From NCBI RefSeq assembly GCF_009914755.1, contig NC_060941.1: 64,000 nt of DNA; one strand, 5' to 3'. Below, piece by piece: positions 25,865-37,002 of this stretch. The DNA comes from the human T2T-CHM13v2.0 reference genome, Homo sapiens. How positions within the stretch are numbered: the first letter of the stretch is position 1; every line of letters starts with the position of its first letter. The notes beneath the pieces are model-generated. The model was not told the origin of the DNA and did not search any database. It was given only the letters and a program-made list of their open reading frames with translations. Both the position numbers and the translations under genes were made by a program.

Positions 25865-26360
<496 letters not shown>

Positions 26361-26484
26361 AAAAATGAAAATCATAATGAAGAAATGGAATATAGAAAAT
26401 GACTGATTTGGAAAAGAACAATGTAGAATTACCCTTTGTTGGGACCATCCTTCCTATCACTTTCCTTTTACTTGAAGCCTTTCT

Positions 26485-26870
<386 letters not shown>

Positions 26871-33235: not shown

Positions 33236-33533
33236 TAAATAAAATCCTCACATGATCATGGTTCTAAATAAAGGGTCTTCTTTAGTGCCGTGGACATTCA
33301 GGGAAAAGCAATTATTCAAGGAAAGAACAAATTACCTTCACAATATTTTCTCTTCCTGGGAATGAAGGGATGTCTCTTGTGAACTTATGTGGGGCCTGAG
33401 GAACCTGGAGATCTCTGCCCTAGTGGAGTTTGTATTCTAGAAGGAGCTGATAGACACATGAATTTCCAATGGAGAATGAGATGATAGAGCCCATGTGTAA
33501 ATAAGGCACCACAGAAGTGCAATGGAGGAAGGA

Positions 33534-34447
33534 TTTTCCTCACTGAAAAATCACTGACTTGAGGCGGATTGATTAGTAGGAGAAAAGGCATACACATTTA
33601 TCTAACAAGTATACCCAAGAGCCTTCAGAATGAAAACTCAACCCCTCAATAAGGTACAGAAGCTTATACAACATCTTGAGGTCCCAGAAAGAATGAGGGC
33701 TCAGAGCATGGCCAAAAACAGGAAACAGGTTTTAGTGGCAAGGCAGGTGTATTGGTCCATTCTCATGCTACTATGAAGAAATACCCAAGACTGGGTAATT
33801 TACAAAGGAAAGAGGTTTAATTGACTCACAGTTCACCATGGCTGGGGAAGCCTCAGGAAACTTACAATCATGGCAGAAGGGGAGGCAAACACATCCTTCT
33901 TCACATCGTGGGAGCAAGGAGAAGTGCAGAGGAGAAGGAAGATAAGCCCCTTATAAAACCCTTAAATCTCATGAGAACTCACTATCACATGAAGGTAACC
34001 GACCCCATGATTAAATTGCCTCCCCCTGTGTCCTTCCCATGACACGTGGGGATTATGAGAACTACAATTCAAGATGAGATTTGGGTGGGGACACAAAGCC
34101 TAACCATATCAACAGGTTATGGGAGGGAGAAAGAAAGAGGCTTGGCCAGCAAAGGGGGTCTTGTTATGTGGATGAAATCTCACAGGTAGCAACTCTCAGA
34201 GAAAAGAGATGGTAAATGATTTTTTTCAGAACTCTAAGGGTGTCAGACAGTCAGTTATTCTCTTCTAGATCCAGGAAAGGCCTATAATGAGAAGGCCTGA
34301 CTGCATTAATGGAGATTCTCTACAGATGCAAATTTCCTTCACAAAAGACAGCTTTGCAGGGCCACTTTAGTCTGCTGGTCATGTGGCAGCCATCTTAAAA
34401 TATGTCAAAAAATATATTTTGGGGTAAAATATTTTTTATTTTCTTAA
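33534..34447 (-). mobile_element. MER34-like LTR containing a THE1 insertion
   Basis: Reverse strand begins ...aaaataaaaaatattttaccccaaaatatatttt...gacatattttaagatggctg. Confidence 0.6.
33748..34111 (-). mobile_element. THE1 (MaLR) LTR
   Basis: Reverse THE1 consensus; 5-bp TSD gcagg/acagg. Confidence 0.85.
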
Positions 34448-34980
34448 TTTAGCATTCTTCTATTTGTTTTTTACTGTCCAAATGCCATTTTTCTCCAATA
34501 TCTTTCTTGTTCTCACACAAAGCAAGGTCCTTCCTCCACTGCACATCTGTTGTGCCTTATATATGCACAGCCTCTACCATCTGATTCTCTCTCAGAAATT
34601 CATTTGTCTATTGGCACCTTCTAAAATACAAACTCCATTAGGGCATAGACTATGATCTATTCATCTTTATATAACAGAACCTGAAACATATGTTTAATGG
34701 ATGAAGATTTTGTCAAGGCTTTCAAGGGTCACACTGACCTTTGAGAATACAAACCATTCAAATAGGTGGAGAGAAAGGGGATATAAAAGGAGCACATAAT
34801 TGAGATTGGGCATGACCCTGGCTTGTGATGGTGAAAGTGATATGCTGAAAGGTCTGTTTTGAGAAGTAATGAGAGAAGTTGGGATTGATAGCATGAGGGA
34901 GAAATTGTGGGTACCCTCAAATCCTGGAAGAAATGGTAGGGAGCTATGAAAAGCCTTCAGGAAGGAATGTTAGGTGATAT

Positions 34981-35964
34981 TGTAACCGCCCAGTGGGTTC
35001 ATTTTTCTTGCTGCCCAGATGGAGCAAACTTACCAAGACAGGGGAATTGCAATAGAGAAAGAGTTTAATGTGCATAGAGCCAGCTAAAAAGGAGACCAGA
35101 GCTTTGTTATTATTCATATCAGCCTCCTTGAAAATTAGGAGGTTAGAGTTTTTCAAGGATAGTTTTGTGAGCAAAGGAATGGGTGCTGCTGATTGGTTGT
35201 GGATGCAATCATAGGGCTGTGGACCATGGTCCTTGTGAGCTGAGTTTGCTTCAGGCAGCGGGGGTCGGTGGGGGCAGGACCAGCTGAGTCAAGAGTCACA
35301 GGTCCAGGTGGGCCTACTGATTGTCAGAAATGCAAAAACATGAAAAGACGTCTCAAAAATCTAATTTTAGGTTCTACAGTAGTGATGTTATCTGCAGGAG
35401 TAATTGGGGAAGTTGCAAATCTTGCGACCCTGCAGATAACATCACTACTGTAGAACCTAAAATTAGATTTTTGAGACGTCTTTTCATGTTTTTGCATTTC
35501 TGACAATCAGTAGGCCCAGCTGGACCTGTGACTCTTGACTCAGCTGGTCCTGCCCCCACCGACCCCCGCTGCCTGAAGCAAACTCAGCTCACAAGGACCA
35601 TGGTCCACAGCCCTATGATTGCATCCACAACCAATCAGCAGCACCCATTCCTTTGCTCATAAAACTATCCTTGAAAAACTCTAGCCTCCTAAGTGGCTGG
35701 TAATTGCTTATGTCTACACCTTAGCAGAACTCAGGCTCCTCTCATCCTCTTAACCTGGTGAACTTTCATTAGTTTTACAAAGGTGGTTTAGTTTTGTGGA
35801 ATGGATATTATCATTTAAACTATAAACTAAATTCCTCCCCCAGGTTAGCTTGGCCCAAGCCCAGGGCAATTTGGAGGTTAAAGGCAAGATAGGAGTTGGT
35901 TCAATCAGATCTCTTCCACTGTGATAATTTTCTTGCTGTTATAATTTTGGCAAAAGTGCTTTCA
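34981..35964 (-). mobile_element. LTR8-family solo LTR carrying an internal inverted duplication
   Basis: Reverse strand starts tgaaagcacttttgccaaaattataac and ends ...gaacccactgggcggttaca. Confidence 0.75.
35135..35692. repeat. Inverted repeat with 264-bp arms, 30-bp spacer and 3 mismatches
   Basis: 35135-35398 is the reverse complement of 35429-35692; the ORF track shows mirror-image ORFs. Confidence 0.97.
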
Positions 35965-36067
35965 AAATATATGCTATGCACAATGTATTTTAATTTTTGA
36001 TCTGCCTTTAGAAATGACAAAACACTCCTGGATTTCTGGGAAGAGATGCCATTAAAAAATTGAAGTG

Positions 36068-36482
<415 letters not shown>

Positions 36483-36874
36483 TTATGAAATAACTAAATT
36501 CTTTCTTTGAAATAATCAGTAGAGACTTGGAACAAATTGAAAATAGAGGTATAAGAAGGGTTCTTCCTAAAAGTTATAAAAGATATTTCAACTGAACTAA
36601 TTGTTTACATATTCTATAATTTTCTATATATGTAATTTATACCCCCTACCTACTTAAAGCCAATAATTAAAGTTTTTAAAGGATAAATAAATCAGAAAGG
36701 ATAAGATGTGCCTAAAAAAGAAGAACTTAAAAAGAATAAGCCATTTAGAGATAAGGAAGAAATATTTACATTAAAAGACTAGAATGGAATCGTAGGCACA
36801 ATTATGCACTAACTACACTTGTTCTTTTCAGAAACTTAAGCAAAATAAAAACCCAATGTTTTATGGAATTCCTG

Positions 36875-37002
36875 TCCCTCCCTCCCTTCCTTCCTTCCTT
36901 CCTTCCTTCCTTCCTTCCTTCCTTTCTTTCTTTCCTTTCTTTCTTTCCTTCCTTCCTTCCTTCCTTCTTTTTTCTTTCTTTCTTTCTTTTTCTTTCTTCT
37001 CT
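36875..37002 (+). repeat. (CCTT)n/(CTTT)n pyrimidine tract
   Basis: Directly visible. Confidence 0.9.

What the first reader, a model, noticed from the sequence alone, without database searches (positions are those of the whole stretch)
35135..35692. Near-perfect 558-bp fold-back palindrome inside an LTR8-type element
Seen: arms 35135-35398 and 35429-35692 (264 bp each) are reverse complements with only 3 mismatches by eye, around a 30-bp spacer. Ordinary LTR sequence resumes at 35693. Inference: a template-switch or snap-back event copied 264 bp in reverse while replacing only a few bases. The arm identity (~99%) suggests a recent origin or arm-to-arm conversion. Established: long, short-spacer inverted repeats can extrude hairpins or cruciforms, are fragile and recombinogenic, are under-represented in cloned libraries, and would form long dsRNA (ADAR/Dicer substrate) if transcribed.
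Basis: partly seen in the sequence, partly recalled or inferred. Interest (0 to 1): 0.7.

Follow-up and report, generated by a model that had tools for sequence, protein, structure and literature searches.

The report
Inverted duplication inside an old LTR
A 264-base piece of an ancient retroviral LTR was copied backwards right next to itself, probably a few million years ago, giving a real but mechanistically ordinary hairpin-forming palindrome between two hair-keratin-associated genes.

Summary
The palindrome is real in T2T-CHM13. Its arms are 35135-35398 and 35429-35692, with 261 of 264 positions complementary and a 30-nt spacer.

It lies in a solo LTR at 34981-35964 whose sense strand is the window's minus strand. 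The LTR has TG..CA ends, and its family makes 4-bp target-site duplications.

None of 27 other aligned family copies carries the right arm. Where the window has 266 nt, 24 of 27 copies have 12 nt. So the left arm and spacer are original LTR sequence, and the right arm is an inverted copy that displaced about 7-10 nt.

The three arm mismatches split into one change on the left arm and two on the right. That pattern argues against a sequencing fold-back artefact.

Arm divergence of 1.1% gives about 6 My at 1e-9 per site per year (95% interval about 1-17 My), assuming no arm-to-arm conversion. The LTR family is far older: pairwise K2P is 0.27, roughly 40-60 My.

The family belongs to the HUERS-P1/LTR8 group (tRNA-Pro primer site). 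It is closest to elements that papers label LTR8A, not to LTR8 proper or LTR8B.

The best mechanism is one switch-and-return template switch (type 3-2-1-4). This is a known kind of mutation, here unusually long. No function is indicated.

The parts
34981..35964 (-). Solo LTR of the HUERS-P1/LTR8 group (closest to LTR8A-labelled elements). It is 984 nt including the inverted duplicate. LTR sense is on the window's minus strand.
   Evidence: Whole-genome search: other copies align to about 34980-35429 and then to 35694-35948. The alignment of 27 copies shows TGT.. at 34981 and ..CA at 35964. Family copies measure 616-832 nt between the same end columns; the window measures 984. The orientation comes from the match to the published THOLE LTR8 on the opposite strand and from primer-binding sites after the 34981-side end in L025 and L030.
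34977..34980 (.). Left candidate target-site duplication (ATAT).
   Evidence: It matches the right candidate at 3 of 4 positions. In the family, 7 of 12 copies with intact ends have perfect 4-nt duplications and 3 have 3 of 4. The control offset gives 0 and 2.
35965..35968 (.). Right candidate target-site duplication (AAAT).
   Evidence: as for the left candidate.
35064..35069 (-). ATTAAA hexamer on the LTR sense strand (TTTAAT as read on the plus strand), a likely poly(A) signal.
   Evidence: The hexamer is kept in 20 of 28 aligned rows, including the window. Its role as a poly(A) signal variant is recalled knowledge, not tested.
35121..35144 (.). Small native hairpin of the LTR (CCTCC at 35123-35127, GGAGG at 35138-35142, 10-nt loop). 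The left arm's outer boundary (35135) lies in its loop.
   Evidence: Both halves are intact in the window and in 12 of 27 family copies. The right arm preserves the form with one more pairing base (position 35143).
35135..35398 (.). Left arm: original LTR sequence and the source of the copy.
   Evidence: It is colinear with all 27 family copies. It carries 1 of the 3 post-duplication changes (35143; 21 of 27 family copies show the right arm's base there).
35399..35428 (.). 30-nt spacer: original LTR sequence, not inverted.
   Evidence: It aligns colinearly with the family rows.
35429..35692 (.). Right arm: reverse-complement duplicate of 35135-35398, inserted where the family has 12 nt.
   Evidence: It is absent from 27 of 27 other copies. 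It matches other copies only on the opposite strand, at the positions of their left-arm equivalent. It carries 2 of the 3 changes (35660 and 35519; 24 of 27 family copies show the left arm's base at each).

Best explanation
An old solo LTR of the HUERS-P1/LTR8 group (most like LTR8A) underwent one local inverted duplication.

DNA synthesis running through the LTR left its template at about 35428/35429. It then copied the neighbouring 264 nt (35398 back to 35135) from the complementary or nascent strand, and returned to the original template about 12 nt downstream of where it had left. [quoted passage not shown] The spacer is the stretch between the first departure point and the landing point, so it keeps its orientation.

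The return happened when the copying reached the loop of a small native hairpin of the LTR.

What is shown: the product, its absence from all other copies, the junction positions, and the independent changes on both arms since the event.

What is inferred: the replicative or repair-synthesis nature of the event, its date of a few million years, and that it has no function.
For: Structure.

The right arm is absent from 27 of 27 aligned family copies. 24 of 27 have 12 nt where the window has 266. The window LTR is 984 nt and family copies are 616-832 nt; 984 minus the net gain of 254 gives 730.

The source is the adjacent arm. The arms are 98.9% alike, and no other genomic match exceeds 84% among the 39 of 3344 candidates scored.

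The spacer is colinear with the family.

Polarity of the three mismatches by family column counts: 21 of 27, 24 of 27 and 24 of 27 copies. This gives 1 change on the left arm and 2 on the right.

The outer boundary lies in the loop of a CCTCC/GGAGG hairpin that is intact in the window and in 12 of 27 copies.

Literature, passages read. Type 3-2-1-4 and its mirror make inverted repeats and account for 31% of high-confidence human-chimp events (PMC5453318). The longest event among human haplotype assemblies was 318 bp (preprint 10.1101/2021.11.26.470150).
Against: No orthologous pre-event sequence was available. The 'before' state is inferred from paralogous copies that are 72-81% identical to this one.

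Junction microhomology is minimal: 1 nt at the inner junction and 0-3 nt at the outer one, with one unexplained extra base.

My idea that a pre-existing short inverted repeat seeded the fold-back is not supported beyond chance. The mean best pairing was 6.72 of 14, against 6.28 +/- 0.23 for shuffles, and 37 of 1000 shuffles reached it.

Replicative switching cannot be distinguished from fold-back repair of a break.

Reads were not available, so assembly correctness rests on indirect argument.

The date assumes no arm-to-arm conversion and rests on three differences.
Confidence: 0.8

Rival explanations
1. The same inverted duplication is much older than the arm divergence suggests, and the arms are kept alike by intrachromosomal arm-to-arm gene conversion, as in the large sex-chromosome palindromes.
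For: Arm identity alone cannot separate recent origin from conversion. Two of the three differences lie within 33 nt of the outer ends, and the inner 90 nt of each arm are identical. That is the pattern conversion starting from the hairpin tip would leave, but with three sites it carries no statistical weight.
Against: Nothing requires it. One derived change on one arm and two on the other is what simple divergence predicts. No data on other species were available.
Confidence: 0.13
2. Assembly or sequencing fold-back artefact: the right arm does not exist in the genome.
For: Fold-back chimeras occur in single long reads.
Against: An artefactual snap-back copies one molecule and would give identical arms. 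Here the arms differ at 3 sites. At one of them the right arm keeps the base seen in 21 of 27 family copies while the left arm has changed, so the copy predates a change in its source. The junction is clean and the LTR continues in register after it.
Confidence: 0.03
3. The inverted segment belongs to the repeat family itself, or is a second element inserted head-to-head (two LTRs, or a hairpin-type DNA transposon).
For: None found. RefSeq's soft mask covers only 35319-35508, centred on the palindrome, which at first suggested a separate palindromic repeat.
Against: 0 of 27 copies contain it. No second locus in the genome matches the palindrome above 84%. The arms are 98.9% alike whereas independent copies of the family are 72-81% alike. 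The right arm has no target-site duplication or termini of its own.
Confidence: 0.01
4. The palindrome is a functional hairpin-RNA or microRNA-like gene born from a template switch.
For: Template switching is reported to create RNA hairpins and new miRNAs (PMC8794818 and PMC10710096, search listing and abstract openings only). The sequence would fold into a 264-bp stem.
Against: RefSeq annotates no gene between KRTAP4-6 and KRTAP4-5. No Rfam family reaches its gathering score; the only overlap is a 35.5-bit match to a plant miRNA model whose threshold is 70, which reflects the generic hairpin. A 264-bp perfect stem is far longer than a miRNA precursor.
Confidence: 0.03

Closest known systems
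Template-switch mutations, four-point model type 3-2-1-4 / 1-4-3-2 (PMC5453318; PMC7954356 seen in listing only)
   Same: [quoted passage not shown] Synthesis returns close to the departure point (12 family nt are spanned). The result is an inverted repeat with an uninverted spacer and a small local loss.
   Different: Length. Typical events are tens of nt, and this one copies 264 nt. The longest reported among human haplotype assemblies is 318 bp, so it sits at the top of the known range.
Ripley-type quasipalindrome correction
   Same: It produces a perfect inverted repeat by using the complementary or nascent strand as a transient template.
   Different: It needs a pre-existing near-perfect inverted repeat. 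Here the pre-existing complementarity at the centre is no better than chance, and 264 nt of new sequence were added.
Fold-back inversions, palindromic amplification and ODIRA (PMC10766183, listing and abstract opening only; review PMC7999016, passages)
   Same: Strand fold-back or a leading-to-lagging switch at a fork or break.
   Different: Those give kilobase-to-megabase palindromes, hairpin-capped molecules or inverted triplications. Here synthesis returned to the original template after 264 nt and the chromosome is otherwise colinear.
PATRRs (palindromic AT-rich repeats)
   Same: Near-perfect palindromes several hundred bp long in the human genome.
   Different: PATRRs are more than 90% AT and essentially spacerless (PMC7999016, passages). 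This one is 47% G+C with a 30-nt spacer. No translocation is known to me at this site, and none was searched for beyond.
Closely spaced inverted Alu pairs
   Same: Arms of about 300 nt that can stall forks when the spacer is short. The review cites stalling in primate cells with a 12-bp spacer but not with a 52-bp one (PMC7999016, passages).
   Different: They arise from two independent insertions and are diverged (70-89% in this window). This is one element copied onto itself at 98.9%.
LTR8A / LTR8 / LTR8B, the LTRs assigned to HUERS-P1 in Repbase (PMC5753468, table passage)
   Same: Full-length colinear homology to elements labelled LTR8A. The ends are homologous to the published LTR8. The family has a tRNA-Pro primer site, 4-bp duplications and a length of about 730 nt.
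   Different: K2P from the window copy is 0.40-0.59 to the published LTR8 pieces and 0.52-0.55 to the PSG9-locus LTR8B, against 0.27 within its own family. It is therefore not LTR8 proper or LTR8B.

Membership tests
Solo LTR of a class I (ERV1, gamma-like) endogenous retrovirus | TG...CA termini | tested here: met
   The window starts TGT at 34981 and ends CA at 35964. 12 of 27 family copies keep both ends intact with both flanks present.
Solo LTR of a class I (ERV1, gamma-like) endogenous retrovirus | 4-bp target-site duplication (that 4 bp is the class I length is recalled knowledge) | tested here: met
   Family: 7 of 12 copies perfect and 3 of 12 with 3 of 4. The control offset gives 0 and 2. 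The window copy itself matches at 3 of 4 (ATAT / AAAT).
HUERS-P group (tRNA-Pro-primed ERV1) | Primer-binding site complementary to the 3' end of tRNA-Pro directly after the 5' LTR of proviral copies | tested here: met
   The complement of the last 15 nt of a genomic tRNA-Pro gene matches 14 of 15 in the published provirus (L031). It matches 12 of 15 in family copies L025 and L030, at the same offset. tRNA-Pro is the best of the 20 isotypes tried in all three. The other 25 copies score 8-11 of 15 at scattered offsets. Tyr and SeC tRNAs were not fetched.
LTR8 proper (the LTR of the published HUERS-P1 at the THOLE/CSF1 locus) | Family-level similarity along the whole LTR | tested here: not met
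   Only the ends align by blastn: 71% over 192 nt and 72% over 118 nt. K2P is 0.40-0.59 against 0.27 within the window's family.
LTR8B | Family-level similarity to the LTR8B at the PSG9 locus | tested here: not met
   The single matching element in 30 kb around PSG9 is 63-69% identical, with K2P 0.52-0.55. That this element is the paper's LTR8B is my inference from PMC12969887 (passages).
LTR8A | Best match to the curated LTR8A model (RepeatMasker/Dfam) | not testable with these tools
   No repeat library is on hand.
LTR8A | In-family similarity to elements that papers label LTR8A | tested here: met
   The chr1 element of PMC1807953 Table 1 is 79-87% identical to the window LTR over three stretches. 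Its continuity again skips the right arm. Its mapping was verified by exact 18-nt and 24-nt runs shared with the CNTNAP3 copy, 320 nt end to end, against a stated 319-bp amplicon. The HLA-B/MICA element (PMC7848197) is colinear over the full length, with K2P 0.29-0.34 to family copies and 0.37 to the window. The FGF2-intron element (preprint 10.1101/2021.08.18.456764) is 71-75% identical over its two main stretches of 260 and 99 nt, with a further 24-nt stretch at 92%. Each label rests on a single element.
Template-switch mutation, type 3-2-1-4 | The inserted fragment is the reverse complement of nearby sequence, and the switch points lie in the order 3 < 2 < 1 < 4 | tested here: met
   Point 3 is 35135, point 2 is 35398, point 1 is 35428/35429, and point 4 lies 12 family nt further on.
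Template-switch mutation, type 3-2-1-4 | A closely related (orthologous) sequence lacks the change | tested here: inconclusive
   Only paralogous copies could be compared: 27 of 27 lack it. No other human or ape assembly is reachable here.
PATRR | More than 90% A+T | tested here: not met
   G+C is 47.1%.
Hairpin-type DNA transposon (MITE) | Multiple dispersed copies of the whole two-armed unit | tested here: not met
   No second locus carries both arms. All other matches are single-armed LTR copies at 84% or less (39 of 3344 candidates scored).
Known structured RNA or miRNA family | Rfam match at the gathering score | tested here: not met
   There are 5 matches at E <= 1 in 34000-37000 and none reaches gathering. 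The one over the palindrome scores 35.5 bits against a threshold of 70.

The most novel reading that the evidence does not exclude
The duplication is specific to the human or African-ape lineage, and perhaps still polymorphic. At 264 nt it is one of the longest single switch-and-return template switches on record. It would have left a cruciform-capable palindrome with 264-nt arms that acts today as a replication-stalling or recombinogenic site in the KRTAP4 array, or as a source of long hairpin RNA.
Probability: 0.12. Interest if true: 0.55.

Novelty: new member of a known kind. Interest (0 to 1): 0.3.

Why it matters
This is a clean natural example of how a long, nearly perfect palindrome can arise in one step inside otherwise inert repeat DNA. 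Both junctions and the 'before' state can be read from 27 sister copies.

It extends the documented size range of local template-switch mutations only slightly. A palindrome with 264-nt arms and a 30-nt spacer falls in the range where experiments cited in the review (PMC7999016) find fork stalling to depend on spacer length. The site could therefore serve as a natural test locus for palindrome stability across human haplotypes and apes.

It does not change any gene model, and nothing suggests a function.

Tried and rejected
1. I expected the published LTR8 (THOLE locus) to be the same family. Only its ends align, so I rejected the name 'LTR8 proper'.

2. LTR8B was tested through the PSG9 locus and is too distant.

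3. I proposed that a pre-existing short inverted repeat flanking the spacer seeded the fold-back. The shuffle control shows it is marginal (37 of 1000 shuffles), so it is dropped as evidence.

4. The symmetric RefSeq soft mask at 35319-35508 suggested a palindromic DNA transposon. The genome search shows only single-armed LTR copies. My guess that the mask reflects word-frequency masking is recalled and untested.

5. No paralogous copy of the LTR or its flanks exists elsewhere in the window. The KRTAP4 duplications therefore give no relative date.

6. The Rfam scan found nothing relevant.

7. Literature.
- 'KRTAP4' plus 'palindrome' gave 1 paper, which is unrelated.
- The GAP-Seq paper (PMC4057610, passages) names other chr17 sites only.
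- PMC12109447 was a false lead, because its 'LTR8' hits are LTR81B.
- PMC13709765 mentions only LTR8B-SP140.
- I found no print mention of this palindrome.

8. The insertion could not be dated by orthology or the palindrome by presence/absence, because no primate or other human assemblies are reachable.

Full report
OBSERVATION

The repeat finder gives arms 35135-35398 and 35429-35692, 264 nt each, 99% complementary, with 30 nt between them. A script finds three non-complementary positions of 264 (35143/35684, 35167/35660, 35308/35519). Pairing does not continue beyond either the outer or the inner ends.

As single-stranded DNA the 558 nt fold into one hairpin at -352.5 kcal/mol. Dinucleotide shuffles average -72.3 +/- 5.1, and 0 of 100 fold as well. 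Among 13 inverted pairs of 60 nt or more within 3 kb in the whole window, this is the only one above 89% complementarity and the only one with a spacer under 300 nt. It is far beyond chance.

THE HOST ELEMENT

A search of the reference genome with 34950-35950 scored 39 of 3344 first-look candidates and returned 121 matches. Other loci align on one strand to about 34980-35429 and then, 8-12 nt later in their own sequence, to 35694-35948. They match the stretch 35429-35692 only on the opposite strand, at the same place as their left-arm equivalent. No locus other than the window itself exceeds 84% identity.

I aligned the window region as it stands with 27 of the 28 fetched copies. L022 was dropped because it had no second-piece match. 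The element runs from TGT at 34981 to CA at 35964.

Of the 27 copies, 12 keep both termini and both flanks. Seven of those have a perfect 4-nt target-site duplication and three have 3 of 4. At a control offset the counts are none and two. The window's own flanks read ATAT and AAAT, a 3 of 4 match.

Between the end columns the family copies measure 616-832 nt and the window measures 984 nt. This is a solo LTR. That a 4-nt duplication marks class I elements is recalled knowledge.

WHICH ARM IS ORIGINAL

Between window positions 35430 and 35695 the window has 266 nt. In the same columns, 24 of 27 copies have 12 nt, and the other three have 9, 10 and 23. None has the right arm.

The left arm and the 30-nt spacer align colinearly with every copy. 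So the right arm is a reverse-complement copy of the adjacent left arm. It was inserted with a net gain of 254 nt and displaced roughly 7-10 nt of LTR sequence. The exact number depends on whether the last three bases of the arm are counted as copied or as retained.

IS IT REAL?

Reads were not available. The sequence itself argues against a fold-back artefact. I polarised the three arm differences using family column counts:
- At 35143 the right arm carries the base seen in 21 of 27 copies, and the left arm has changed.
- At 35167 and at 35308 the left arm carries the base seen in 24 of 27 copies, and the right arm has changed.

One change on the source and two on the copy is the signature of two sequences diverging in a genome. 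It is not what a molecule copied onto itself during library preparation would show.

FAMILY

No repeat library is on hand, so I named the element from print anchors and LTR comparison only.

Anchor 1, LTR8. PMC6862598 (passages read) describes a HUERS-P1 provirus upstream of CSF1. Its 5' LTR8 is 691 bp, split after 453 bp by a 312-bp Alu, and the paper prints primers for it.
- The primers map uniquely to C1:109841538 and C1:109842342, and I fetched 1.5 kb there (L031).
- The window LTR matches it on the opposite strand and only at the ends: 71% over 192 nt and 72% over 118 nt. The LTR's sense strand is therefore the window's minus strand.
- In keeping with that, ATTAAA on the minus strand at 35064-35069 is kept in 20 of 28 rows.

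Primer-binding site.
- Two family copies found with the window LTR (L025, L030) are followed, past the end equivalent to 34981, by sequence resembling the leader of that provirus.
- I fetched one gene for each of 20 of the 22 annotated tRNA isotypes.
- The complement of the last 15 nt of tRNA-Pro matches 14 of 15 in L031 and 12 of 15 in both L025 and L030, at the same offset.
- tRNA-Pro is the best isotype in all three. The remaining 25 copies score 8-11 of 15 at scattered places.
- The family is therefore the LTR of a tRNA-Pro-primed class I element. That fits the HUERS-P group, to which Repbase assigns LTR8, LTR8A, LTR8B and others (PMC5753468, table passage).

Subfamily.
- K2P distances within the window's family average 0.272 (351 pairs, range 0.19-0.41). 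The window's mean distance to the family is 0.273.
- The published LTR8 pieces lie at 0.40-0.59 from the window.
- The single matching element in 30 kb at PSG9 lies at 0.52-0.55. I take it to be the LTR8B of PMC12969887 (passages).

Elements labelled LTR8A are closer:
- The one element between HLA-B and MICA (PMC7848197, table passage) is colinear over its full length. Its K2P is 0.29-0.34 to family copies and 0.37 to the window.
- The chr1 reference amplicon listed as LTR8A and paired with CNTNAP3 in PMC1807953 Table 1 is 79-87% identical to the window LTR over three stretches. It too passes straight across the junction without the right arm.
- I placed that amplicon with a recalled hg18 offset and then checked the placement. 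A search with the chr1 element finds a copy inside CNTNAP3. The two loci share an exact 18-nt run and an exact 24-nt run whose outer ends are 320 nt apart, against the 319-bp amplicon in the table.
- An element in FGF2 intron 1, called LTR8A-derived in preprint 10.1101/2021.08.18.456764 (passages), matches at 71-75% over its two main stretches.

My conclusion is the HUERS-P1/LTR8 group, best named LTR8A. Confirmation by a curated library is still needed.

AGE OF THE LTR

Half the family's mean pairwise distance is 0.136. Half the window's distance to its nearest copy is 0.11, and half the closest pair is 0.094. At 2.2e-9 substitutions per site per year (a recalled, commonly used rate) this gives 42-62 My. 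Slower rates give more, and subfamily structure and CpG decay inflate the figure.

Print agrees in kind, from passages read:
- HUERS-P1/LTR8 is reported only from higher primates (PMC6862598).
- The mouse has no LTR8 (the preprint above).
- A composite element with an internal LTR8A sits in New World monkey TRIM5, with its solo LTR remnant at the same place in Old World primates (PMC3597737).

I therefore put the family at roughly 40-60 My. The window copy is not unusual within it. Its own insertion date cannot be fixed without orthologous sequence.

AGE OF THE PALINDROME

Three differences in 264 nt is 1.14% (Poisson 95% interval 0.23-3.3%). Split over two arms, this gives:
- 5.7 My at 1e-9 per site per year (interval 1.2-16.6 My);
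- 2.6 My at 2.2e-9;
- 11.4 My at 0.5e-9.

The rates are recalled. The event is thus at least an order of magnitude younger than the LTR. It could be human-specific or shared with African apes. Arm-to-arm conversion would make it older than it looks.

MECHANISM

The product fits a single switch-and-return template switch. In the four-point model (PMC5453318, passages) the points lie in the order 3 (35135) < 2 (35398) < 1 (35428/35429) < 4 (12 family nt after point 1). This is type 3-2-1-4. With its mirror it makes an inverted repeat with an uninverted spacer and accounted for 31% of high-confidence human-chimp events.

Such events are usually tens of nt long. The longest among human haplotype assemblies was 318 bp (preprint 10.1101/2021.11.26.470150, passages), so 264 nt is long but within range.

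Junction detail:
- At the inner junction a single base (35429) is shared between the LTR's own continuation and the copy.
- At the outer junction the copy stops in the loop of a small native hairpin of the LTR (CCTCC 35123-35127, GGAGG 35138-35142). That hairpin is intact in the window and in 12 of 27 copies.
- Up to three bases could be shared with the return site, and one base is unexplained.

My further idea, that a short inverted repeat flanking the spacer primed the fold-back, did not survive its control (6.72 against 6.28 +/- 0.23; 37 of 1000 shuffles). I do not rely on it.

Whether the switch occurred at a replication fork or during repair synthesis at a break cannot be told from the product.

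FUNCTION

None is indicated. The site is intergenic, between KRTAP4-6 and KRTAP4-5 in the supplied annotation. No Rfam family reaches its threshold. The only overlapping match is a 35.5-bit hit to a plant miRNA model with a 70-bit threshold, which reflects a generic long hairpin.

The review PMC7999016 (passages) reports that inverted Alus stall forks in primate cells with a 12-bp spacer but not with a 52-bp one. It also reports that one catalogue counts 718 spacerless palindromes over 200 bp in the human genome. With a 30-nt spacer this site lies between the tested cases and would not be in that catalogue. Fragility here is possible but untested.

COMPARISON AND VERDICT

The host is better called LTR8A-like than LTR8.

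The thing is a new instance of a known kind of mutation, notable mainly for its length and its clean junctions. It is not a PATRR (47% G+C), not a transposon with hairpin ends (no second copy), and not part of the LTR family (0 of 27 copies).

I found no mention of it in print. That rests on one search, and supplementary catalogues were closed. Interest is modest.

Noticed in passing
L014 (G000:C16:24370445-24371888), and rows for C16:24370945-24372243: One family copy carries a direct (tandem) duplication of roughly 280 nt. It spans the equivalents of window 35326-35429 plus 35694-35854, the same part of the LTR where the window copy has its inverted duplication.
   Followed up: partly
window 35319-35508: The RefSeq soft mask covers only this 190-nt stretch of the LTR, exactly symmetric about the palindrome centre. 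The rest of the 984-nt LTR is not listed as masked. This is probably word-frequency masking rather than a repeat-library hit (a guess, untested).
   Followed up: partly
window 36066-36391, and the RefSeq 'silencer fragment' at 36050-36152: An Alu lies about 100 nt beyond the LTR. It gives sub-threshold Rfam matches to SRP RNA and mir-1268 and has eight or so diverged relatives in the window. The annotated silencer fragment overlaps its left end.
   Followed up: no
L025 (G000:C8:91732444-91733888) and L030 (G000:C4:82038300-82039742): These two family copies are 5' LTRs still attached to internal proviral sequence, with a tRNA-Pro-type primer site (12 of 15). The interior was not explored, by rule.
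   Followed up: partly
L060 4247-4993 (G000:C1:32274247-32274993): An element resembling the published LTR8 (72-79% to its first part, with a gap of about 300 nt that looks like an insertion). It does not match the window LTR, which shows that LTR8-proper and the window's family are separable by blastn.
   Followed up: no
one search hit list for L062:7650-8200: The chr1 LTR8A element has about 20 relatives at 79-82% that all end at query position about 422. A second set at 74-79% runs to about 518. This suggests two sub-lineages or a recurrent truncated form, perhaps the LTR8A embedded in composite HUERS-P3b elements mentioned in PMC3597737.
   Followed up: no
window 26009-26735 and 33412-34649: These are the next-best inverted pairs in the window: 193-nt arms at 80% with a 341-nt spacer, and 129-nt arms at 81% with a 980-nt spacer. 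They are presumably inverted Alu pairs.
   Followed up: no
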